64,000 nt of DNA from a virus (IMGVR_UViG_3300035698_019437:64001-128000); one strand, 5' to 3'; shown: positions 37,511 to 53,101, numbered from the stretch's first letter. Numbers and translations: made by a program. Notes: generated from the sequence alone by a model not told the origin.

Positions 37511-38984
37511 ACAGAAAATAGACATCGAAAGAGACTTTATAGCTTTACTTTTGAAGCATAAAGATTTGGTATCAGAATGGATTGAAGGTGGACCTTCTAC
37601 AGACTTTTTCGATGAAACACATCACTTATTATTGTACGCTATCATGTCAGCCTACAATAATAATGCATTACTGACTTTAAGAGGTTTAAGAGGATTCTTA
37701 ACTGTTCAATCTTCTAGCAAATTAAATAATCTAGCTCATGAAAAAGAATTCAACTTAGCTAATATGGCTTTTGTTGGTAAAGATGATTTTCATGTGTTGC
37801 GTACTAAAATTACAGAAGCGCACGTTTCAAAGAACTCGATAGATGCTATTCAGAATTTTAGGAATGACTTGGGTTCTAAAGGGGCGATGTTTGCTGTTAA
37901 GAAGTTAGAAGATAGTCTGTCTAGTCTTGTGCTTAATACGGAAGTGCAGAAACCTATCGTTTATGAGTCTTTGATGGATTATATGCCAGAGTTTATGCAT
38001 CTTCTTGAAGCAAGGAAGGATGGCAACGGCGAAGAAATCATTTCTTGCGGAATCAAGGAAATAGATTATGCGATGGTTGTAGGGTTCGCTCCCGGTACTT
38101 TGACTTTGTTTTGTGCAGATGTAGGCGGATATAAAAGCACGATGATGCTTAACATAGCCGTGAACATTTGGAAGAAATCAAAGAAGAACGTTTTGTTCGT
38201 ACCTCTAGAAATGCCAAAAGACAAAATCGCAGAAAAAATACTTTCTAGAGAAACAGGTATTCCGTTCGAAAGGTTTGAGCATAGTGAACAACTAACCGAT
38301 GATGATTGGAAAAAAATCAAAGAGTTTAGTGAAGAGAGAAAAAATTGGGATCATAAGTTGTTTATTATGGATGCACCTGAACGTATTCCAGTATCTGTTA
38401 TTCGTAGAGAAATAGAAAAGCATATAGATATATTCCAACCCAACTTAGTGGTTGTAGATTACATAGCAAACTTGATTCCTGATAAAAGATATAGAAATGA
38501 CAGAAACGACTTGCAAATTGGTGAGATGTTGAAAGACTTGAGACATATGGGAAGGGTTAATAGTATTTCTAAGAAGGGCTTTGCGATTGTATCTGCTGCT
38601 CAAATAGGTAGAGAGGGATTAAAGCGAGTAAGAAAGCTAGGTGCAGGTAAGAGTACATTCTATTCAGAAGATTTGAGAGGTAGTCATGAATACGCTGCTG
38701 ATGCGGATAATATATTCGGACAAATGGAAGACCCCTCTCAGCCTACTTCTAATTTACAGCTAGTTGTTATTAAAGCGAGATACGGAAGAAAGACTTTTTC
38801 TGATGGAAAAGTTAAATCCATATTGGATATCAAACCAGAGATTGCTTTAATTCAAAGTAAAGATGAGGCATGGCTTAATTCAGAACAAGCTCAAGCTAAC
38901 ATCCTTACCAAAGTAGATACTCCTGACGAGGATTGGGATATACAGATAGATTCTCCTGATTTTGGAGTAGATGGACAGATATGA
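37497..38984 (+). CDS. dnaB: Replicative DNA helicase DnaB-like
   Basis: SCGIKEID..GF.PG.L, variant Walker A ADVGGYKS, LEM, VVDY, AAQIGR, DADN, KARYG. Confidence 0.88.
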   Translation: MITDKQKIDIERDFIALLLKHKDLVSEWIEGGPSTDFFDETHHLLLYAIMSAYNNNALLTLRGLRGFLTVQSSSKLNNLAHEKEFNLANMAFVGKDDFHVLRTKITEAHVSKNSIDAIQNFRNDLGSKGAMFAVKKLEDSLSSLVLNTEVQKPIVYESLMDYMPEFMHLLEARKDGNGEEIISCGIKEIDYAMVVGFAPGTLTLFCADVGGYKSTMMLNIAVNIWKKSKKNVLFVPLEMPKDKIAEKILSRETGIPFERFEHSEQLTDDDWKKIKEFSEERKNWDHKLFIMDAPERIPVSVIRREIEKHIDIFQPNLVVVDYIANLIPDKRYRNDRNDLQIGEMLKDLRHMGRVNSISKKGFAIVSAAQIGREGLKRVRKLGAGKSTFYSEDLRGSHEYAADADNIFGQMEDPSQPTSNLQLVVIKARYGRKTFSDGKVKSILDIKPEIALIQSKDEAWLNSEQAQANILTKVDTPDEDWDIQIDSPDFGVDGQI

Positions 38985-39649
38985 GCAAAGCAAATAAATA
39001 TCTTATAGATCAGATAAGAAAGAAACATAAGATAACTGAGTTCTTAGCGTCTAAGAATATACAGCCAAAGAATATAGGAGATCGTAGAATAGGCTACGTG
39101 TGTCCAATACATAATGATAGTCAACCTTCTTTCTTTGTATATACAGACCCTGGAACATATGAAAACTATTTTTGTTTTGGATGCAAAAGTTTTGGTGACA
39201 TTATATCTTTGTATGCAGCTATGGAAAAAGTGTCGTGGTTAGAAGCTATAAACATACTAGGAAAGGGTATGACGGTTTCTGACGACCATAGACTTGATGT
39301 AACTATAGATGAAATCAAAAAAGAGATATCAGACATACATGAAGATAAACAAGATAATAAGTTTGGTGAGTTTTCTTTGTTAATATCTGTAATGGGTAAT
39401 AACCATGCCAGAAAGACCGAACAAGATAAAGCAGAGTTAGAATTACTAGAACAGTTATACCAGAGAATAGACAAAATGGTTCATGAATACAACATAGACG
39501 AATTACAAGAGATGTACGAATACATAACTGGTAATAACAGTTTAGGAAGAAATGCATTTGAATACCGTATGTCTATATGGTATTGTAAGCAGCAAGAGAA
39601 ATTGAAGAAAGAACTTCATATGGAAAACGTTTTTAATGAAGATGGTTAA
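38981..39649 (+). CDS. Stand-alone DnaG-type CHC2 zinc-finger (primase zinc-binding domain) with helical C-terminal region
   Basis: CPIHNDSQPSF..YFCFGC..GDII...E..S..EA matches the DnaG ZBD; no TOPRIM domain follows. Confidence 0.85.
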   Translation: MSKANKYLIDQIRKKHKITEFLASKNIQPKNIGDRRIGYVCPIHNDSQPSFFVYTDPGTYENYFCFGCKSFGDIISLYAAMEKVSWLEAINILGKGMTVSDDHRLDVTIDEIKKEISDIHEDKQDNKFGEFSLLISVMGNNHARKTEQDKAELELLEQLYQRIDKMVHEYNIDELQEMYEYITGNNSLGRNAFEYRMSIWYCKQQEKLKKELHMENVFNEDG

Positions 39650-44534: not shown

Positions 44535-44809
44535 TGCCAACATATTCATATAGACATCCAGAAAGTGGTGAAATCTTAGAAGATTTTAGAACCATAAGCA
44601 AAAGAGAAGAACCATTTATAGCTCCCGATGGAGCGGAATGTGAATTCGTTCCATTCTGTCATGGGAAAGCTCCTGAGATAGGCATTGGTAAAAAAGAAGG
44701 ATGGGAACTTGATGAGAAGTTCTATCGAAAGACTAATCCAAAATTTGTAAAATATCGCGATGGCCGAAGAGAACGATATGATCCTAATAAGCATCGTAAA
44801 CAATATTAA
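44534..44809 (+). CDS. FmdB-like (degenerate zinc-ribbon) small protein
   Basis: MPTYSY..P..GE..E N-terminus is typical of FmdB-family proteins, but the CxxC pairs are lost. Confidence 0.55.
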   Translation: MPTYSYRHPESGEILEDFRTISKREEPFIAPDGAECEFVPFCHGKAPEIGIGKKEGWELDEKFYRKTNPKFVKYRDGRRERYDPNKHRKQY

Positions 44810-45168
44810 TGAGATATATACGTCAACAACAATTTATTACAACTGTCACCGATCAAGAAATTAAAAAACACGATGACATAAATAATCTTCTAACTGCTAT
44901 AAGAAACGGAAGTGCAGATATCCATTTAGTCTATGAAGATGCAAGAACGTCTTCTATCATATCCCATAAAAAAACTCGTATTAAAAAAGTGGAAGACGGT
45001 AAAATAGACATTACATCTTTCGGTAAAAGCGGTAGCATCTCTGTCAAAAATATTACTTTTGATAATATCATATCGATTAGAATAGTGACAGATACTGAGA
45101 ATATAATGGTAGATGAAAAGAAGATTACAAGAGCAGATTTACTTGATATAGAAATAGAATCGGAGTAA
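44809..45168 (+). CDS. Hypothetical protein
   Basis: Coupled ORF; no recognised family. Confidence 0.65.
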   Translation: MRYIRQQQFITTVTDQEIKKHDDINNLLTAIRNGSADIHLVYEDARTSSIISHKKTRIKKVEDGKIDITSFGKSGSISVKNITFDNIISIRIVTDTENIMVDEKKITRADLLDIEIESE

Positions 45169-45173
45169 TCAAT

Positions 45174-46487
45174 TTGCAATTCTCTAACTCAAACTTTGTT
45201 CATTGTCATGTACACTCAGAGTATAGTCAGTTCGATGGAATATGTTCTATCAATAAATTGGTTATGAAGGCTAGAGAGATGGGTTTTCCTGCTTTAGCTT
45301 TGACTGATCATGGTTCGGTAGGTGGATGGATTAAGTTTTTGAATGAGTGTAATGCAACGAAAACCAAAAAAGGAGAATCTATTCCTTTTCCAAAAATTAA
45401 GCCTATTCTTGGAAGTGAACTATATGTTTCTAAGGATATGTATGCTCAGAGTAAAAATGAGCAGCCAGAAGGCAGGAAGGGAAACCGTCACTTAGTACTG
45501 CTTGCTAAAAATTGGGAGGGTTACAAGAATCTAGCTAGATTGTCCAATGCGTCTTGGACAAAGGGGGTATATTATAATCCTCGTGTAGATTTCGACTTAT
45601 TGTCGAAACATTCTGAAGGTATTATAGCTAGTTCTGCATGTCTTTCAAGCGTTATAAATGCAAATTTGTTACATGATAGATATGATCAAGCTAAGGCTGC
45701 TTCATCTTTATTTAAAGATATTTATGGTGAAGACTTCTTCTTAGAAGTTATGTATCACGGTATTGATGCTCAACGAGTAATTATAGCTGATATATTTAAG
45801 CTAAGTAAAGAACTGGATATTCCTGTAATAGCTACAAATGATGTTCATTATCTTAGCAAGGCTCAATCCAAATCTCATGAAATTTGGATGTGTATGAAAA
45901 GCGGTGATAATGTTAAATGTATTCATGATACAAAAAGAATCAAGTTCCCGTTCCCAGAAATGTATTTGAAAAGTGCAGAAGAGATGTCAGTTGTATTTGG
46001 GGATTCTCCTCAGATTCTTTTCAACACTCTATCTATAGCGGAAAGAGTAGATGATGCTGATATAAATAAAAACCTCTTTGGTGGTATGAGACTTCCTGTA
46101 TTTCACGTGCCAGAAGAATTTGAAACTTCTTACGACTATCTAAAGAAGTTATCATTAGATGGTTTAAAGAAACTTGGTTGGGATAAAAGCCCACAGCACG
46201 TAGAAGCGTTTGAAGTTGAGATGGAAGATATAAGGATAGCTAAAGAGAATAACGATTATGATTTTGCTACATATTTTCTTATCGTAAGAGATTATATCAA
46301 AAATGCGAAATCAAAGGGGATTCTTTGTGGACCCGGTAGAGGTTCAGGTTATGGAAGTGTTGTTCTAAGATGTATAGGAGTTACATATGGACCAGACCCA
46401 TTAAAGTATGGATTGCTTTGGGAAAGATTCTTGGGTTTTGATAACAAAAGATTTGTTATGGAAAAAGACTTTGGTTTTGAGGAATAA
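45174..46487 (+). CDS. dnaE: DNA polymerase III alpha, N-terminal fragment (PHP domain + start of palm)
   Basis: FVHCHVHSEYS.DG, ALTDHG, GSELY, HLVLLAKN..GY.NL, TNDVHY, GPGRGS..GS, DPLKYGLLWERFL, then stop. Confidence 0.93.
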   Translation: MQFSNSNFVHCHVHSEYSQFDGICSINKLVMKAREMGFPALALTDHGSVGGWIKFLNECNATKTKKGESIPFPKIKPILGSELYVSKDMYAQSKNEQPEGRKGNRHLVLLAKNWEGYKNLARLSNASWTKGVYYNPRVDFDLLSKHSEGIIASSACLSSVINANLLHDRYDQAKAASSLFKDIYGEDFFLEVMYHGIDAQRVIIADIFKLSKELDIPVIATNDVHYLSKAQSKSHEIWMCMKSGDNVKCIHDTKRIKFPFPEMYLKSAEEMSVVFGDSPQILFNTLSIAERVDDADINKNLFGGMRLPVFHVPEEFETSYDYLKKLSLDGLKKLGWDKSPQHVEAFEVEMEDIRIAKENNDYDFATYFLIVRDYIKNAKSKGILCGPGRGSGYGSVVLRCIGVTYGPDPLKYGLLWERFLGFDNKRFVMEKDFGFEE

Positions 46488-46488
46488 T

Positions 46489-46656
46489 ATGCTTCATAAT
46501 GAAATGGCAGATATGTTTGTTATAAAATATAAAGAAGAATTGTCAGAGTTAGTTAAGGATGTGCCTCGATTAAGGTGGACAATAGTTCAGGAATTCAAAG
46601 TAAATTTTCCTACTGCCATGTCGGTGGTGAAACATATAATGGAGAATAACAGATGA
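46489..46656 (+). CDS. Small hypothetical protein (55 aa) between the dnaE halves
   Basis: ATG immediately after the dnaE-N stop with GAGG upstream; ATGA overlap with the next gene. Confidence 0.5.
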   Translation: MLHNEMADMFVIKYKEELSELVKDVPRLRWTIVQEFKVNFPTAMSVVKHIMENNR

Positions 46657-47174
46657 TGATAGATGATTTTATGAGTGATCTAGACTTTTTAAGAATTGCG
46701 TATCGCGTAGCAGAACAACATTCAACTGATCCAAGCACCCAGAACGGTGCCATTCTTGTGAAGAAGTGTTTTGATCCTAATTCCATACAAGTATGGGGCA
46801 TGGGCGCTAACCATTTTCCAGAAGGTGTGAAAGATATTCCCGAGAGATGGGAAAGACCACAGAAGTATGGATATGTAGAACACGCTGGAAGAAACGCTAT
46901 ATACGATGCCGCTAGAAAAGGTTTTGGTACAGAAGATTTAGTAATGTACTGTCCTTGGTTTGCATGTTCTGATTGTGCTAGAGCTATCATACAAGCAGGT
47001 ATTTCAGAAGTTATAGGTCATCAGGATCAACTGGATCGAACTCCTGAGCGATGGATGGAAACGATTGATGTCGCCCTTAATATGCTTAAGGAAGCCGGTG
47101 TTGACTATAGATTTGTCCCTGGCAAAGTTGGTGGAGTAAAGATTACATTTAATGGAGAAATTATTGAGCCGTAA
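46653..47174 (+). CDS. dCMP deaminase-family protein (catalytic HxE reads HAG)
   Basis: S.DPSTQNGA, HAGRNAI, PWFACSDCARAIIQAGI. Confidence 0.88.
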   Translation: MMIDDFMSDLDFLRIAYRVAEQHSTDPSTQNGAILVKKCFDPNSIQVWGMGANHFPEGVKDIPERWERPQKYGYVEHAGRNAIYDAARKGFGTEDLVMYCPWFACSDCARAIIQAGISEVIGHQDQLDRTPERWMETIDVALNMLKEAGVDYRFVPGKVGGVKITFNGEIIEP

Positions 47175-49135
47175 TGTCTGATATTAGAAACGAAATTCTG
47201 AAGCATATAGGTGATGTTGATTCTAAGTCGTGTGATAAGGTTAATATTGAACTTGATATCATGGAAATCACTGATGCTTTAGAAGGTGGAAGCTCTCTAG
47301 AAGTTTTCTATGATATATGGCAAAAGAATCGTCATAGAACAGGAAAAACCAACAACGTAAATAGTTGGACTGCTTATCTATTAGGCATTACGTCTATGAA
47401 ACCTGATGGCGATTTTATGCCTGAACGTAGAGCATTTGCAAGAGCAGGATTTCCTGATATTGATTCTGATTTTGACTATTTCAGAAGAGATGAAGTCTAT
47501 GATTATATTATAGATAAGTTTGGTCGAGATAATGTAGCTAACATAGGAACGTATCAGGCTTTAAAGTTGAAATCTGCTGTTCGTCGTATAGGTAAGGTTA
47601 TTGATATTGCAGGAGCTTATCATAAGGGTAAAGATAAATATACAACTGAAAATGAGAAAAAAGTTTCAGAGATTATCAATTCTTTGCCTTTCCAAGTTGG
47701 TGCAAAACTAAAAATAAAAGACGATAGCGGTGAAACGCAAGAAATAAAATCAATTGAAGATGCATACAAGTACTGTAAAGATTTTAGATATTACATGGAC
47801 AAGTATCCTGATATTCGAAATCATGCTAAGAACATTGAAGGTCTTCTTTCTATATTTGGGAAGCATGCCGCAGGTATTGTTGTTTCTGATGTTCCTTTAG
47901 ACGAAATTGCTCCTGTTAGAACGGCAAGAGGCAATAGTCTTGCAACACAGTTCGTGTTGGATGAGCTAGATCAGATCGGACTTATTAAGTTTGATATTCT
48001 TGCTTTAAGTGCGCTTACTGTAATAGATAGAGCGGTCAGTATGGTTAAAGAAAACTATGGTATAGATATAGACATAGAAAATTTGCCATTAGATGACTCT
48101 AAGACCTTGGCTCTTTACAGGACTGGGAAACTTGCTGGGGTATTTCAAGCTGAAACAAGTGCAATGCAAAAAACTATGATGGATATCAGTATAAATAGAT
48201 TTGAAGACATCATAGCTTCAATTGCGTTGTTTAGACCTGGCCCAATGGATAGTATTCCAGAATATTGTGCCAGAAAAAGAGGAGAGAGAAGTGTAGAATA
48301 TTTTCATCCGTCTATTGAGCCACATGTTAAGAAGTACTTAGAAGGTACATATGGAGTTTTGGTTTATCAAGAGACGGTTATGCAAATATGTAATGCCCTT
48401 GCAGGTTTTTCTATATCCGATGGTTATGTTGTCATTAAGGGTATTGGAAAGAAGAAAGAACATATTATTAAGAAGTTTAGGGGTCAGTTTATAGAAGGTT
48501 GCGTGAAGAATGATGTCCCTAGAGATGTAGCAGAAAAATATTGGGACAAGTTCATTACTCCGTTTGCATCTTATGGATTCAACTTAGCTCATAGTTGTTG
48601 CTATGCATACTTGAGTTATATAACCGCTTATCTCAAAGCAAATTATCCTGACGAATTCATGTGTTCTTTCTTGAACGTAGAAAATGAAAGAAAGAATCAC
48701 GATAAGGTCGCGGTACTTATGAAAGATTTGAAAAATTTCAATATAGAGCTAGGCCCAAAAAGAATTAACTCATGTAGCGTAGATTTTTGTATTGTGAAAA
48801 AGAGGGATGTATCATCTGGTATAGAGAAAACCGTTATATCCCCAAGTATTGCATGTAAGGGTGTAGGGTCAAATAGTGCAGAAGAAATAGCTAAGAATGG
48901 TCCTTATGGAGGTCTTAGAGACTTAGCTACTAAAACCAGTTCTAATATAGTAGATCAAGAAGTAATCAGCAACTTATTCGACGCAGGGTTTTTTGAATCT
49001 TATCTTAAAGATTATAAAAAGAAGAATAAGAAGGCAATGACCAAAGAATTATTGGTTAGTCGATTTGCTTCTATAAGAGAAGATATGAAGAAAGCCGCCC
49101 AGAAGGGCGTAATATCAAAAGACCTATTTGGTTAA
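47174..49135 (+). CDS. dnaE: DNA polymerase III alpha, C-terminal fragment (catalytic PDIDxD, fingers, HhH; no OB domain)
   Basis: FPDIDSDF, GKHAAGIV, GLIKFDIL, GVFQ, ALFRPGP, TYGVLVYQE, FASYGFN.AH, YLKANYP.EF. Confidence 0.93.
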   Translation: MSDIRNEILKHIGDVDSKSCDKVNIELDIMEITDALEGGSSLEVFYDIWQKNRHRTGKTNNVNSWTAYLLGITSMKPDGDFMPERRAFARAGFPDIDSDFDYFRRDEVYDYIIDKFGRDNVANIGTYQALKLKSAVRRIGKVIDIAGAYHKGKDKYTTENEKKVSEIINSLPFQVGAKLKIKDDSGETQEIKSIEDAYKYCKDFRYYMDKYPDIRNHAKNIEGLLSIFGKHAAGIVVSDVPLDEIAPVRTARGNSLATQFVLDELDQIGLIKFDILALSALTVIDRAVSMVKENYGIDIDIENLPLDDSKTLALYRTGKLAGVFQAETSAMQKTMMDISINRFEDIIASIALFRPGPMDSIPEYCARKRGERSVEYFHPSIEPHVKKYLEGTYGVLVYQETVMQICNALAGFSISDGYVVIKGIGKKKEHIIKKFRGQFIEGCVKNDVPRDVAEKYWDKFITPFASYGFNLAHSCCYAYLSYITAYLKANYPDEFMCSFLNVENERKNHDKVAVLMKDLKNFNIELGPKRINSCSVDFCIVKKRDVSSGIEKTVISPSIACKGVGSNSAEEIAKNGPYGGLRDLATKTSSNIVDQEVISNLFDAGFFESYLKDYKKKNKKAMTKELLVSRFASIREDMKKAAQKGVISKDLFG

Positions 49136-49148
49136 TTGGAGAAATTAG

Positions 49149-49454
49149 ATGTCAGAACAAACACGCAAATCTATTATTCATAAGACAATCACTAGAAAAC
49201 TTAGTACCGCAAAATTTGAGAGTCTAGACTTAACTGTTGAATTTGAAGAAGAGGTAGAGTGGAATTCTATTAAAGAAAGACAAGAAAAGTCCGATAAGAT
49301 TACAAAGCTTCTTTTGGTTGATTACACGAAAACAAGAAATGCTGTTTTGGATGTTCTTGGTTTGACAGAAAAGAAAGCGTCTGTAAGCAGCACAGTTACA
49401 ACTAAAAGCAAAGAATATAATGTTCAAGAACTCGGCTTGGACGATTTGAAATAG
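49149..49454 (+). CDS. Small hypothetical phage protein
   Basis: GGAG RBS; TITRKLST..FES motif seen in small phage proteins near replication genes. Confidence 0.65.
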   Translation: MSEQTRKSIIHKTITRKLSTAKFESLDLTVEFEEEVEWNSIKERQEKSDKITKLLLVDYTKTRNAVLDVLGLTEKKASVSSTVTTKSKEYNVQELGLDDLK

Positions 49455-49462
49455 GAGTAAGT

Positions 49463-50449
49463 ATGAAAGATTTAGATGATATTTTTGATATACCTACAGA
49501 GAAAAAAGAACAGCAAGAAGATGATCCGAATACGAAGTTCGGAGACAAAGTTGCAGACGTTGTAGGAGATTTGTCTAAAGACTCTGTAGCTTTGGAAGTT
49601 ACGCATGTTATGGCAGCAGATGATGCGCCTCCCGGCGTAGCTGAAGATTTAGAGAAGATAGTTGAAGCTAAATCAGAACCCGAGTCTCTTCCAGAAGAGG
49701 TTGTACCCGCACAAGGTGGTGAAGAAGTAGGGAAATATTACGACGAACCCGGTGCCATACCAGGTGGTCCATGGATACTTAAAAGTCCAAATTCTATGTA
49801 TGATAATTTCTATGAAGAGAAGAAGGAATTATTAACACAGATACTTGTTGATGGAGCTATACCATTTCCTAAATACAGGAACGAGCTTAAAACAAGTAGC
49901 GTAGATATATCTGTAGTTACCTTTGATAAAGATGAGATATACCAGAAGATGTCTGCTGTTCAAGGTTTGAAAGAAAGAGTTAAGCAAATTCAAATTCATT
50001 GCAATAGCCAATTTTTTCTTTGGGAACGTTCTTTACAGCTTATGCACGGTGTTCTAGCTCGTATAGATTACGAAAAACCAGTTGTTAAGAATGAAGGCGT
50101 TGTATATGAACATATGAATGATATGGAAAGATACTTTGGTAATCTTAAAGGGTTGACCAAATCTGCTGATGCTGTTATGAAGACGCTAGAAGGTGCGTTT
50201 GATTGTCTTTCCAGGAGAGTAACTATAGCTATGCCGATGCGAGGTATAGAAAGAAAAGAACCTCAACCTCAACTGCAACCGCAACTGCAACCTCAACCGC
50301 AACTGCAACCTCAACCGCAACCCAAGTCGGAAGAAATGTCTTATTTCGATAAATTAGATTCATCTGCGTCTAAGCAAATTATTGAAAGTCATAAAGTTTC
50401 TGAGAAAAAAGTCAAGGGTACACAAAGTGTGAGTTGGGGAAACATATAA
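49463..50449 (+). CDS. Hypothetical coiled-coil protein with PQ repeat (possible recombination mediator)
   Basis: AGGAG RBS; helical core; directly upstream of SSB and RecA. Confidence 0.6.
   Translation: MKDLDDIFDIPTEKKEQQEDDPNTKFGDKVADVVGDLSKDSVALEVTHVMAADDAPPGVAEDLEKIVEAKSEPESLPEEVVPAQGGEEVGKYYDEPGAIPGGPWILKSPNSMYDNFYEEKKELLTQILVDGAIPFPKYRNELKTSSVDISVVTFDKDEIYQKMSAVQGLKERVKQIQIHCNSQFFLWERSLQLMHGVLARIDYEKPVVKNEGVVYEHMNDMERYFGNLKGLTKSADAVMKTLEGAFDCLSRRVTIAMPMRGIERKEPQPQLQPQLQPQPQLQPQPQPKSEEMSYFDKLDSSASKQIIESHKVSEKKVKGTQSVSWGNI
50261..50323 (+). repeat. Hexamer tandem repeat (CCTCAA/CTGCAA/CCGCAA) encoding PQPQLQPQLQPQPQLQPQPQP
   Basis: Ten consecutive NNNCAA units read directly. Confidence 0.9.
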
Positions 50450-51207: not shown

Positions 51208-52446
51208 ATGTCAAAATCAAAAGATATTGTAGTAGAAAATTTGAAAGGGTTTGTAAGAAAAGGAGCATCTTCTTGCAGTCCGGGAAATATCCCGACTGGT
51301 CATTTCCCTCTTGACTTTGTTATTCATCACGGGACTACTCCCGATAAAGTCGATCTCAACAAAGTAGATGGATACGATCCCTCTAAGCCACTAGGTTTAC
51401 CGCTTGGAAAACTTATCGAGATTTTCGGTGGGGAAGGAGCCGGTAAATCTAGTTTGGCTTATAGGGTAGTAGGATATGCTCAGAAGCTAGGGCATGCCTG
51501 TGCGTGGCTAGATACTGAAAATAGCTTTGCTGAGAACCTAGCTACAATTAACGGTGTCAATAAAGAAGAACTGTATTATTCTGATATGTCAACTGAGGAA
51601 GAACTAGATAAAGTCTTCTATGCAGAAGATGTTTTTGACGCGATTATAACTCTTATCAAGAGTGGCGTTAAGGTTATTGTCTTAGACTCAGTTGCAAATT
51701 TAGTCCCGAAGGTTCGTATGGAAGCACAAGCAGAACAAAGAACTGTTGGTGTCCTTGCTAGACTTATGAGTGAAAATCTTGGGAAGATTGTTAACTATGC
51801 TGGTAGTCATGGAGCTATGGTTATCTTTATCAATCAGTTAAGAGAAAAGATCGGGGTTTTCTTTGGAAATCCAGAGACAACTCCTGGCGGTAGAAGTCTA
51901 AAGCATAATTGTTCTGTAAGGATTCAGATTTCTAAGAAGGGCGGCAAAGAAGCTGATATCTTCATAGAGAACGAAGAAGGCAATGAATCTCTTATCGGAA
52001 GATATGCTAGAGTGAATGTTAGAAAGAATAGAATGGCTAAGCCATACATGGAAAGCATTTTGGTTCCTGTTTATTACGAAGCATATTTCCCAGACATTGA
52101 GGAAATGCTATTTGATGTCGGTCGTCAACTCAAATTGATTTCAGTTAGAAAAGGCGTATTTAAATGGGAAGACAGTAAAGGAAAAGAACATAAGTTGGAT
52201 GGCAGAAGAGCTTTCATTGATTACATTAAAAGTAATAAGTTGGAGTTTTTGCTTGCTAATAGCCTTATCGCTAAGGCTGCTGAGGTAGGCGTATTTTTGC
52301 CGCCAGAAATTACTCAATGGTATATGAATAATACGAAAGCAGAAGAGGGTATCGGAAGTGACGAAAAAACATCCAATAAGGAGGGATCGGCTTCCGGACG
52401 CAGAAAGGGAAAAAGTAGCAAGGTGGGCGACGGAGACTCTCAATAA
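51208..52446 (+). CDS. recA: RecA/UvsX recombinase
   Basis: IPTG..LD, GLP.G..IEIFGGEGAGKS, DTE, VLDSVA, ARLMS, FINQLREKIG..FGNPETTPGGR.LK, KNR. Confidence 0.95.
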   Translation: MSKSKDIVVENLKGFVRKGASSCSPGNIPTGHFPLDFVIHHGTTPDKVDLNKVDGYDPSKPLGLPLGKLIEIFGGEGAGKSSLAYRVVGYAQKLGHACAWLDTENSFAENLATINGVNKEELYYSDMSTEEELDKVFYAEDVFDAIITLIKSGVKVIVLDSVANLVPKVRMEAQAEQRTVGVLARLMSENLGKIVNYAGSHGAMVIFINQLREKIGVFFGNPETTPGGRSLKHNCSVRIQISKKGGKEADIFIENEEGNESLIGRYARVNVRKNRMAKPYMESILVPVYYEAYFPDIEEMLFDVGRQLKLISVRKGVFKWEDSKGKEHKLDGRRAFIDYIKSNKLEFLLANSLIAKAAEVGVFLPPEITQWYMNNTKAEEGIGSDEKTSNKEGSASGRRKGKSSKVGDGDSQ

Positions 52447-53101
52447 AAGAGAAAATGGAGAATCAAAAGAAGCGTTTGAGTATTTGAGAGATGTTAGAGG
52501 GCTATCTGAAAGAACTATTAAGGACTTTCGAATAGGTTATGTTCCCAAGAGTGTCCAGAATGAGTACGGTAATAGACACGAATGTGCAGGTAGGATCATT
52601 TTTCCTATCTTCGATGCCTATAACAGTTTAGTAGCTTTATCTACAAGAGACTGGCGAGAAAATGCCAAGATGAAACATTGGCATGAAAGTTTTGCCAAAT
52701 CTCTTTATCTATACGGTTTGAATGCTGTAAAAAAATGGGTTTCTCATTATAATCTTTGTATGATAGTCGAAGGTGAATTTGACCTATTCTCCGTATATAA
52801 TGTAGGGTTATATCCAGTTGTAGGTACTTTGGGAACATCTCTTAACCTTTTTCAAATTTCCATGCTTAAAAGATATTGTGATAACATATACCTTATATTT
52901 GATGGTGATGAACCTGGTAGGAATGCGACTCAAAGAGTGTTAACTGTAAGTAAACAACATGGGTTATCTAGTTTCGAGATAAACATAATACCTGTATATA
53001 TGCCTGAAAAATCAGACCCCGATAGTTTCGTCAGACAAAACGGCAAATCATCATTTGTAAGTTTGATGCGCGAAGCTAAGAAATTGAAAGAGAAGAAATA
53101 A
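52358..53101 (+). CDS. dnaG: DNA primase DnaG catalytic core (Toprim_N + TOPRIM) lacking the zinc-binding domain
   Basis: YL...RGL....I..F.IGY, GRIIFPI, LYGL, IVEGEFD, GT.L...Q, FDGD.PG..A, KSDPDSF; no CHC2 motif. Confidence 0.9.
   Translation: MTKKHPIRRDRLPDAEREKVARWATETLNKRENGESKEAFEYLRDVRGLSERTIKDFRIGYVPKSVQNEYGNRHECAGRIIFPIFDAYNSLVALSTRDWRENAKMKHWHESFAKSLYLYGLNAVKKWVSHYNLCMIVEGEFDLFSVYNVGLYPVVGTLGTSLNLFQISMLKRYCDNIYLIFDGDEPGRNATQRVLTVSKQHGLSSFEINIIPVYMPEKSDPDSFVRQNGKSSFVSLMREAKKLKEKK

What the first reader, a model, noticed from the sequence alone, without database searches (positions are those of the whole stretch)
45174..49135. DnaE split through the palm domain into two genes, with no intein and two unrelated genes in between
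Seen: the N-gene has a PHP domain with apparently intact metal ligands and the GRGS motif, and stops 17 aa after ERFL. The C-gene supplies PDIDSDF and the third Asp (KFD). In ordinary DnaE, ERFL and PDID are about 7 residues apart. No C/S-start or HN-C intein motifs flank the break, unlike cyanobacterial split DnaE. A 55-aa ORF and a dCMP-deaminase gene are coupled in the gap, arguing against a sequencing frameshift. Inference: a heterodimeric C-family replicase whose active site assembles non-covalently. Together with the split primase, this suggests a modular replisome and is the strongest candidate for an undescribed system.
Basis: partly seen in the sequence, partly recalled or inferred. 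Interest (0 to 1): 0.85.

Follow-up and report, generated by a model that had tools for sequence, protein, structure and literature searches.

The report
Two-gene phage DnaE polymerase, no intein
This large uncultured phage, like thousands of metagenomic relatives, encodes its bacterial-type replicative DNA polymerase as two separate proteins that must share one active site, and the space between the two genes has become a drop-in site for unrelated cargo genes.

Summary
DnaE is encoded as an N-gene (45174-46487: PHP, palm start, GRGSG, ERFL) and a C-gene (47174-49135: catalytic Asp residues, thumb, fingers, HhH). A 55-aa ORF and a dCMP-deaminase-like gene lie between them. I found no intein, intron or Rfam match.

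The split is not peculiar to this genome. Stand-alone N- and C-halves are abundant in metagenomes, on contigs up to 548 kb. Of 30 informative loci, 24 are split, with gaps of 0-2,936 nt carrying varied cargo. Five near-complete relatives have no family-A or family-B polymerase.

The cut does not lie in the ancestral 7-residue loop. It lies in the flexible linker of a clade-specific insertion of about 105-130 aa. Some relatives carry that insertion in one chain and others lack it. The insertion's C-part, the 84-aa leader of the C-gene, is a conserved helical module that looks like a diverged second copy of the helix-GRGS-helix unit. Fused and split forms are interspersed on the tree.

Best reading: a non-covalent two-subunit C-family replicase. 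I found no paper describing it. The nearest are a predicted split minimal Pol III (Iyer 2021) and the active split PolB 43A/43B. This scan has already found and followed up the same arrangement on at least eight other genomes.

The parts
45174..46487 (+). DnaE N-subunit gene (437 aa). [quoted passage not shown] It lacks the acidic ...GGVDRY tail found in most relatives.
46464..46487 (+). End of the N-subunit: KDFGFEE followed by the stop codon. D432 and F433 are invariant in 50 N-halves. This corresponds to the segment just before the only low-confidence linker in the natural single-chain relative P0124.
46489..46656 (+). 55-aa ORF of unknown function. It is gap cargo, starts 1 nt after the N-gene stop, has GAGGAA upstream and overlaps the deaminase start. 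No family matches it, and no homologue occurs in the other surveyed gaps.
46653..47174 (+). dCMP/CMP-deaminase-fold gene (173 aa), also gap cargo. The zinc ligands are kept, but the catalytic Glu of the HAE motif is Gly (EHAGRN; codon GGA at 46887-46889). Homologues in relatives keep the Glu and lie far from DnaE.
47174..47425 (+). Leader of the C-subunit (aa 1-84). It is a conserved, clade-specific four-helix module (invariant N60; >=90% conserved E26 L42 W49 G57 N63 S64 W65 A67 G71 T73 P77 F81). It is probably a diverged second copy of the helix-GS-helix unit, with GRGS degenerated to GKTN (nt 47342-47353). It is proposed to form part of the interface with the N-subunit.
47174..49135 (+). 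DnaE C-subunit gene (653 aa). After the leader come the RRAFARAGF strand, catalytic FPDIDSDF (47450-47473), thumb, third Asp in IKFD (47984-47995), fingers, and the HhH / beta-binding-domain region. There is no OB fold or tau-binding C-terminal domain.

Best explanation
The two genes encode complementary subunits of one DnaE-type (C-family) replicative DNA polymerase that assembles without covalent joining.

The N-subunit supplies the PHP 3'-5' proofreading exonuclease and the first part of the Pol-beta-like palm, including the GRGSG loop that holds the incoming dNTP's phosphates. The C-subunit supplies the two Mg-binding aspartates (PDID), the third aspartate (KFD), the thumb, the fingers and the HhH DNA-binding region.

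The cut lies in a flexible surface linker inside a clade-specific insertion of about 105-130 residues. That insertion sits between the ERFL helix and the DxD strand. Its N-side (GF-D-x-K-x-F...DFGF) stays on the N-subunit as a short strand plus turn. Its C-side is the 84-aa helical leader of the C-subunit.

Inferred steps. The N-tail strand pairs with the conserved RRAF strand just before PDID. The leader packs against the N-subunit. Together these lock the halves so that GRGS and DxD face each other. The leader most likely arose as a tandem duplicate of the helix-GS-helix unit and then lost the GS function, while the N-copy kept it.

Because the junction tolerates a break, the intergenic space has become a hotspot where unrelated genes accumulate. 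Here these are a 55-aa ORF and a deaminase-like gene, co-transcribed and translationally coupled with the polymerase genes.
For: Shown by tools:
1. The domain content of the halves is complementary. Both halves cover Taq 423-457 and PRK06826 positions 358-391.
2. GRGS, the nine PHP ligands and tail residues D432/F433 are invariant in 50 N-halves. D95, D97, K272, D274 and leader residue N60 are invariant in 101 C-halves.
3. Stand-alone halves are numerous: 5,936 N-type hits at E<1e-20 and 3,204 C-type hits at E<1e-30, on contigs up to 548 kb.
4. Of 30 loci, 24 are split, with gaps of 0-2,936 nt. In the minimal-gap loci the C-gene has its own Shine-Dalgarno sequence and ATG.
5. Five relatives that are 98-100% complete (461-548 kb) have no PolA or PolB.
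6. Natural single-chain 'expanded' relatives hold the tail core, a linker and the leader in one ORF. The AF2 model of one (P0124) has pLDDT 93.2 and pTM 0.89. It matches Taq and Mtb Pol III alpha at TM 0.72-0.73. Its only weak stretch (residues 431-450, pLDDT 60-69) is exactly the cut site.
7. The C-half modelled alone has a confident helical leader (pLDDT ~90). Residues 81-100 (RRAFARAGFPDID) drop to 65-74 and lose the strand seen in the fused model.
8. The leader is not superposed on the canonical GS unit; structural alignments begin at residue ~88.
9. hhalign of the leader profile against the canonical segment gives probability 87% and E 4e-6 over 69 columns.
10. Fused and split forms are interspersed on the tree. 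AU tests reject a single clade of fused forms (p 4e-43). This implies the forms are functionally interchangeable.
11. There is an experimental precedent in another polymerase family: split PolB 43A/43B co-purify and are active (PMC2988022).
Against: There is no experimental evidence that the halves bind or that the complex polymerises. No multimer prediction or model coordinates were available, so the strand pairing and the leader interface are inferred from DSSP and pLDDT differences only.

This window's N-half lacks the acidic ...GGVDRY C-terminal tail present in about 60% (72 of 119) of N-halves. If that tail is the main tether, association here would need another route. Short-tail forms do recur in several lineages, though.

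The duplication signal is modest. It is not significant against the phage's own N-segment (E 0.12), and the leader-only HMM hit no canonical DnaE in the library search.

The genome is a 29%-complete fragment, so another polymerase in this particular phage cannot be excluded.
Confidence: 0.8

Rival explanations
1. The halves act separately. The C-protein would be a self-sufficient polymerase that uses its own degenerate G..N loop in the leader. The N-protein would be a free-standing PHP exonuclease or proofreader, functionally like a separate epsilon subunit, perhaps only loosely associated.
For: The leader keeps near-invariant G57 and invariant N60 at the positions of GRGS. The C-half folds confidently on its own. 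Proofreading by a separate subunit is normal for E. coli Pol III (established knowledge).
Against: GRGSG and the whole palm entry are invariant in N-halves, which is unexplained for a pure exonuclease. The leader position equivalent to the second Gly of GRGS varies (T/K/S/R). The leader does not superpose on the canonical GS unit. The active-site strand region is poorly ordered without the N-part. Natural fusions keep both copies in one chain.
Confidence: 0.1
2. The halves are joined covalently after transcription or translation. Candidate routes are a group I/II intron spanning the gap, a cryptic (split) intein formed by the tail plus leader, or translational bypassing.
For: This DnaE clade is rich in inteins. 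The relative L003 has a split intein plus a free-standing LAGLIDADG gene at another site, and many N- and C-halves carry inteins. The leader has a conserved N63|S64 that superficially resembles an intein C-junction. Presence and absence of the insertion is sporadic on the tree.
Against: No Rfam intron hit was found. Gaps range from 0 to 2.9 kb and contain intact coupled ORFs, so no conserved intron is possible. No Hint family hit occurs in either half. The insertion is predicted to be almost entirely alpha-helical, whereas Hint domains are all-beta (established knowledge). The N-tail begins with conserved DnaE sequence, not a Cys/Ser Hint start. Relative to compact relatives, the insertion boundaries are D...R, not C/S...N.
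Confidence: 0.03
3. The arrangement is an assembly or sequencing artefact, or a decaying polymerase gene interrupted by a recent insertion in this one genome.
For: The gap cargo is unique to this genome among surveyed loci. The deaminase-like gene lacks its catalytic Glu. Read support cannot be checked.
Against: The same two-gene architecture, with the same tail core and leader, occurs in independent assemblies from many samples. Every invariant catalytic residue is intact in both window genes. The junctions are tightly coupled: TAA-T-ATG and TAATG.
Confidence: 0.02

Closest known systems
Single-chain bacterial DnaE / Pol III alpha with an active PHP proofreader (T. aquaticus 2HPI/3E0D, M. tuberculosis DnaE1 7PU7/5LEW; Clostridia-type DnaE is the nearest by sequence, ~44% identity to the N-half)
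   Same: It has the same domains in the same order: PHP with nine metal ligands, a Pol-beta-like palm with GRGS, DxD and a third Asp, then thumb, fingers and HhH. The natural fused relative models onto these structures at TM 0.72-0.73, and the C-half aligns at Z 22-26.
   Different: Here it is encoded as two polypeptides cut between the GS motif and the DxD strand. There is an extra 105-130-aa insertion at the cut, and no OB fold or tau-binding C-terminal domain. No beta clamp was detected in complete relatives.
Split 'minimal' Pol III alpha of group 2.2 (T4-like) jumbo phages, predicted by Iyer et al. 2021 (PMC7824862)
   Same: It is a C-family catalytic module divided into an NTP-binding part and a Mg/template-binding part that are encoded separately and presumed to reassemble.
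   Different: That version is minimal, with no PHP and no other Pol III domains. Its two genes are distant from each other. It accompanies a family-B replicative polymerase, and it is also only predicted. Here the full-size PHP-bearing DnaE is split, the genes are neighbours, and it is the only polymerase found in complete relatives. Direct sequence relatedness between the two systems was not tested.
Genes-in-pieces enzymes of T4-related phages: PolB 43A/43B (Aeromonas phages 25 and 44RR), NrdA split by mobE (Aeh1), topoisomerase gp39/gp60 (review PMC2988022)
   Same: An essential replication enzyme is cut into two ORFs with no intein, sometimes with an inserted gene between them. The pieces reassemble non-covalently, and 43A/43B and the split NrdA are shown to be active.
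   Different: These belong to different enzyme families and are mostly tied to homing-endonuclease insertions. Here no endonuclease was recognised in any of 20 scanned gap ORFs. The cut lies in a duplicated-segment insertion, and the arrangement spans a very large, old clade.
Split-intein DnaE of cyanobacteria and 'fractured' DnaE genes with a split intein plus free-standing endonuclease (Dassa et al. 2009, PMC2677866)
   Same: dnaE is encoded in two genes. The relative L003 of this very clade shows the fractured arrangement at the GFN|SHS site.
   Different: Those halves are ligated by protein trans-splicing at other positions. The window's break has no Hint sequences and a helical, not beta, predicted structure.

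Membership tests
C-family DNA polymerase, DnaE type (Pol III alpha) | PHP domain followed by the Pol-beta-like palm (PF07733), fingers (PF17657) and HhH (PF14579) in this order | tested here: met
   The features are met by the two proteins taken together. The N-half has PHP plus PF07733 positions 2-98. The C-half has PF07733 positions 68-260, PF17657 and PF14579. NCBIfam DnaE models cover both halves.
C-family DNA polymerase, DnaE type (Pol III alpha) | Catalytic residues: the GS dNTP-phosphate loop, two Asp in PDxD and a third Asp | tested here: met
   GRGS 388-391 lies in the N-half and is invariant in 50 sequences. D95, D97 and D274 lie in the C-half and are invariant in 101 sequences.
C-family DNA polymerase, DnaE type (Pol III alpha) | Single polypeptide carrying the whole catalytic core | tested here: not met
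   There are two ORFs separated by 686 nt that contain two other genes. 24 of 30 related loci are also split.
C-family DNA polymerase, DnaE type (Pol III alpha) | C-terminal OB fold and tau-binding domain of replicative DnaE1 | tested here: not met
   The C-half has no PF01336 match. The structural alignment ends at about Taq residue 983. The nearest bacterial DnaE proteins do carry PF01336.
PHP-proofreading DnaE (M. tuberculosis DnaE1 type) | All nine PHP metal-ligand residues (H H D H E H C D H) | tested here: met
   H12 H14 D21 H46 E82 H106 C156 D223 H225 are invariant in 50 N-halves. Exonuclease activity itself was not tested.
Split-intein / fractured gene (Dassa 2009) | Hint N- and C-fragments with Cys/Ser at position 1 and a terminal Asn followed by Cys/Ser/Thr at the break | tested here: not met
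   Neither half matches a Hint or intein Pfam family. The region is predicted to be helical. The relative L003 does show the real motifs at another site, which serves as a positive contrast.
Intron-interrupted gene (group I/II) | A conserved ribozyme structure spanning the interruption | tested here: not met
   There is no Rfam match at E<=1 in 44800-49600. Gaps of 0, 14 and 54 nt in relatives leave no room for an intron.
Homing-endonuclease 'genes in pieces' (T4-like mobE/seg type) | A free-standing HNH, GIY-YIG or LAGLIDADG gene at the break | tested here: inconclusive
   Twenty gap ORFs from relatives and the window's two gap ORFs were scanned against Pfam and none matched an endonuclease family. 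Many gap ORFs have no family at all, and the other gap ORFs from the 73-ORF set clustered were not scanned.
Split minimal Pol III alpha of group 2.2 jumbo phages (Iyer 2021) | Minimal NTase plus template-binding modules only, with no PHP, alongside a family-B polymerase | tested here: not met
   PHP and the full fingers/HhH are present. No PolB was found in the window's genome or in five complete relatives.
dCMP/CMP deaminase (gap cargo gene) | Zinc motif H/C-A-E ... P-C-x-x-C with a catalytic Glu | tested here: not met
   PF00383 matches at E 1.8e-13. However, the motif reads HAG where human DCTD has HAE, and relatives have HAE or HSE.

The most novel reading that the evidence does not exclude
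The tail-plus-leader insertion is a dedicated subunit-docking module born from a tandem duplication of half of the nucleotidyltransferase core. It lets a replicative C-family polymerase exist interchangeably as one chain or two. Fission and fusion have therefore happened many times in this clade. The permissive junction has been captured as a genomic landing pad that places accessory genes (methyltransferases, ClpP, deaminase-like proteins and others) under replication-module expression. If so, this would be the first C-family replicase shown to build its catalytic centre across a protein-protein interface.
Probability: 0.45. Interest if true: 0.75.

Novelty: new variant of a known kind. Interest (0 to 1): 0.66.

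Why it matters
C-family polymerases are the main replicases of bacteria. As far as I know and could find, every characterised one carries its catalytic centre on a single chain (after splicing in the split-intein forms of cyanobacteria). Here a very large clade of phages with genomes up to ~0.5 Mb appears to replicate with an enzyme whose dNTP-binding loop and metal-binding aspartates lie on different proteins.

This gives a natural system for three questions. How can a polymerase active site be assembled across an interface? How does duplication followed by complementary decay create a gene fission? Why do some phage loci become hotspots for cargo genes?

There is also a practical point. Annotation pipelines label the halves 'PHP domain-containing protein' and 'DNA polymerase III subunit alpha', so the arrangement is easily mistaken for a broken gene. 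Natural fused, compact and split versions exist side by side, so direct biochemical comparison is feasible.

Tried and rejected
- **Intron.** The Rfam E-value scan of 44800-49600 found nothing.
- **Intein.** Neither half has a Hint family match. I considered the N63|S64 junction and the sporadic distribution as signs of a cryptic intein. I rejected this because the region is predicted helical and its boundaries do not fit.
- **Close cultured relatives.** tblastn against 50,697 phage records gave at most 33.5% identity, so no annotated record could be used.
- **Homing endonuclease in the gaps.** None was recognised among 20 scanned gap ORFs from relatives or the window's two gap ORFs.
- **A conserved partner gene in the gap.** Clustering of 73 gap ORFs showed only sub-lineage-specific sets, and the window's two gap genes matched none.
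- **The window's tail.** I searched for the GGVDRY tip in all six frames of the window, L003 and L004. It is absent.
- **Leader against the phage's own N-segment.** hhalign was not significant (E 0.12).
- **Leader-only HMM against 1.84 billion proteins.** Only this clade was hit and no canonical DnaE, so the duplication rests on profile-profile and extension alignments.
- **Contact analysis of the AF2 models.** Coordinates are not exposed, and no multimer prediction was available.
- **Promoter/terminator scan.** Nothing notable appeared in the gap.
- **Polarity of evolution.** It is not resolved. Compact forms are nested within split clades, yet they share junction characters (ERFL-A-F, GKRVFAR). 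Recombination and repeated deletion cannot be told apart.


Full report
**Observation.** The window is part of a 147-kb IMG/VR viral record with CheckV completeness 29%. In it, an ORF of 437 aa (45174-46487) is followed by a 55-aa ORF (46489-46656). Next comes a 173-aa deaminase-fold ORF (46653-47174), then a 653-aa ORF (47174-49135), all on the + strand and tightly coupled.

Pfam places PHP and positions 2-98 of the Pol III alpha palm profile on the first ORF. It places positions 68-260 plus the fingers and HhH domains on the last ORF. PHROGs and NCBIfam agree. GRGSG and WERFL are in the N-gene. FPDIDSDF and KFD are in the C-gene.

No Hint or intein family matches either half. No Rfam family matches the region at E<=1.

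Against Taq Pol III alpha, the N-half aligns to residues 4-457 and the C-half to 423-947. About 35 canonical residues, the GS loop and the following helix, are thus represented twice. The copy in the N-gene is intact. The copy in the C-gene is degenerate (GKTNNVNSWTAYLLGIT).

**The split is a clade character.** Searching the 5.8-billion-protein collection with the N-half gave 5,936 hits at E<1e-20 in the 240-765 aa size class. The top 120 are all PHP plus palm-start proteins of 429-660 aa (all but one at most 502 aa), 54-65% identical, on contigs up to 473 kb. The C-half gave 3,204 hits at E<1e-30. The top hits are mostly 640-680 aa, most covering 96-100% of the query so that the leader is included, on contigs up to 502 kb.

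I examined 30 informative loci. Of these, 24 are split, 3 are single-chain 'expanded' and 3 are single-chain 'compact'. The neighbourhood is conserved: DnaB, a stand-alone DnaG zinc ribbon, methyltransferases, DnaE-N, DnaE-C, RecA and a Toprim primase core.

Five relatives are 98-100% complete (461-548 kb, three with terminal repeats). They have no family-A or family-B polymerase and no beta clamp. The split DnaE is therefore the only recognisable replicative polymerase in this kind of phage and must work.

**Where the cut really is.** Single-chain relatives fall into two classes.
- Compact forms (about 991-998 aa, and L003) read ERFLAF, about 8 residues, then GKRVFARxGFPDID.
- Expanded forms (1071-1117 aa) read ERFLGF-D.K.F...DFGF, a linker, then the complete equivalent of the C-gene leader, then RRAFARAGFPDID.

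The expanded forms thus carry an insertion of about 105-130 residues in one chain, and the split forms are cut inside it.

Every N-half shares the tail core, and D432/F433 are invariant. Every C-half shares the leader. N60 is invariant and a dozen positions are at least 90% conserved.

I modelled a natural expanded fusion, P0124, as a stand-in for the heterodimer. The model has mean pLDDT 93.2 and pTM 0.89. It superposes on the Taq and M. tuberculosis enzymes at TM 0.72-0.73. Its only weak stretch is residues 431-450 (pLDDT 60-69), which is the linker between DFGF and the leader-equivalent helices. The natural cut therefore falls in a flexible loop.

**What the leader is.** A profile of 92 leaders aligns to the canonical bacterial segment (ELxVI helix, YFLIVWDFI helix, VGPGRGS loop, SxVAYxLGIT helix). 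The match spans 69 columns at 87% probability and E 4e-6. Pfam, NCBIfam and PDB alignments independently extend into leader residues 57-84.

The signal is modest. It is not significant against the phage's own N-segment. A leader-only HMM finds only this clade among 1.84 billion representatives: 65 clusters, with the leader always at the N-terminus of C-halves or inside expanded fusions.

I read the leader as a diverged tandem duplicate of the helix-GS-helix unit. It has lost the GS function, because the position of the second Gly varies.

In the model of the window's C-half alone (pLDDT 91.0), the leader is a confident four-helix module. Structural alignments to solved Pol III alpha start only at residue ~88 (Z 22-26.5). 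The leader therefore does not occupy the canonical GS slot.

Residues 81-100 (RRAFARAGFPDID) drop to pLDDT 65-74 and lose the beta strand that they form in the fused model. In that model a strand in the N-side tail core (FDEK) is also present. From this I infer, but cannot show without coordinates, two things. The N-tail strand pairs with the RRAF strand, and the leader provides additional interface.

**Evolution.** On a tree of the shared N-terminal region, rooted with Clostridia-type DnaE, the phage clade is monophyletic and split forms dominate, including on basal branches. Expanded and compact single-chain forms are nested at several places (FastTree, 152 rows).

IQ-TREE AU tests on a 57-row subset reject a single clade for each class:
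- compact forms, p 2e-7
- expanded forms, p 2e-44
- all fused forms, p 4e-43

Expanded forms are repeatedly sisters of short-tail split forms like the window's. Minimal-gap loci show how small the step is. L017 has DFGF-stop, then 54 nt with a Shine-Dalgarno sequence and an ATG. L006 has TAA directly followed by ATG.

Either fission and fusion recurred or junctions recombined. In both cases, one-chain and two-chain enzymes are interchangeable in nature. Polarity remains unresolved.

**The gap.** Gap lengths run from 0 to 2,936 nt. Cargo includes Dam-type methyltransferases, ClpP, a SAM methyltransferase, a zinc-finger protein and many unknowns. It is shared only within sub-lineages, and no endonuclease was recognised.

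The window's two gap genes occur in no other surveyed gap. Homologues of the deaminase-like gene lie far from DnaE in complete relatives. The two 'unrelated genes in between' are thus cargo in a permissive junction, not parts of the polymerase.

**Rivals.**
- Independent function of the halves is the only serious rival (about 0.1). The invariant GRGS in N-halves and the leader's non-canonical position argue against it.
- Covalent joining is very unlikely (about 0.03).
- Artefact or decay is also very unlikely (about 0.02).

**Comparison with what is known.** I found no paper describing this split. The following are the nearest.
- Iyer et al. 2021 predicted a split minimal Pol III alpha in T4-like jumbo phages. 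It has no PHP, its genes are distant, and it sits beside a PolB.
- Dassa et al. 2009 described DnaE fractured by split inteins. The relative L003 shows this at another site.
- Split PolB 43A/43B of Aeromonas phages co-purify and are active.

This case is a new variant: a full-size, PHP-bearing C-family replicase divided between the GS loop and the DxD strand.

This scan has already met the arrangement. At least eight followed-up findings on other genomes reach the same reading.

**Features specific to this window.** These are the short-tail N-half, the unique cargo and the Glu-to-Gly deaminase motif.

Noticed in passing
relatives only, e.g. L006:7340-7392, L010, L012, L021; absent from window 1-64000 in all frames: 72 of 119 stand-alone N-halves (about 60%) end in an acidic linker followed by a strongly conserved C-terminal tip, ...E[ED]D[LMPF]GG[VI]DRY-COOH. 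This is reminiscent of the acidic C-terminal interaction tails of SSB and T7 gp2.5. The window's N-half belongs to the minority that stops right after DFGF. The function of the tip is unknown; it could tether the C-subunit or another replisome protein.
   Followed up: partly
window 46653-47174 (Gly codon GGA at 46887-46889): The dCMP-deaminase-like gap gene keeps its zinc ligands but has Gly where the catalytic Glu of the HAE motif should be (EHAGRN). Human DCTD has HAE, and homologues in relatives have EHAE or EHSE. The codon is one base from GAA. The protein could be an inactive or repurposed deaminase, or the change could be a sequencing error.
   Followed up: partly
L003:4696-9339 (IMGVR_UViG_3300002514_005018): The closest IMG/VR relative has an unsplit, compact palm. 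It is fractured elsewhere instead, after FASYGFNM. There a Hint N-fragment (CLDG...) is followed by a free-standing LAGLIDADG-like ORF (384 aa), then a C-intein-like leader (...FVFSAN|SHSS) fused to the rest of DnaE. This is a textbook 'fractured gene' of the kind described by Dassa et al. 2009.
   Followed up: partly
proteins P0127-P0175, P0249, P0263, P0265, P0340 and others: Many N-halves (about 840-900 aa) and C-halves (about 1050-1125 aa) of this clade carry full inteins (PF14890, PF14528, PF13403) at several different sites. This dnaE is an unusually dense target for selfish elements.
   Followed up: no
window 38981-39649 and 52358-53101: The DnaG primase is also encoded in two genes about 13 kb apart: a CHC2 zinc-ribbon protein next to DnaB, and a DNAG_N/Toprim catalytic core after RecA. 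Relatives L004 and L006 have the same layout, so it is conserved.
   Followed up: partly
G001-G005 (complete relatives, 461-548 kb): No beta sliding clamp (PF00712), PolA or PolB was detected in five near-complete relatives. The C-half also lacks the OB and tau-binding domains. How this polymerase achieves processivity is open.
   Followed up: partly
L013:10388-10558: One sub-lineage (N-tail ending ...EQDFV) appears to have a shortened leader of 65 aa up to PDID, instead of 92-103. The start was taken as the first ATG, and the stretch upstream in that frame was not examined. P0183 (976 aa) is a single-chain form with an intermediate insertion (61 aa between W of WERFL and PDID). The insertion module therefore varies in size.
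   Followed up: no
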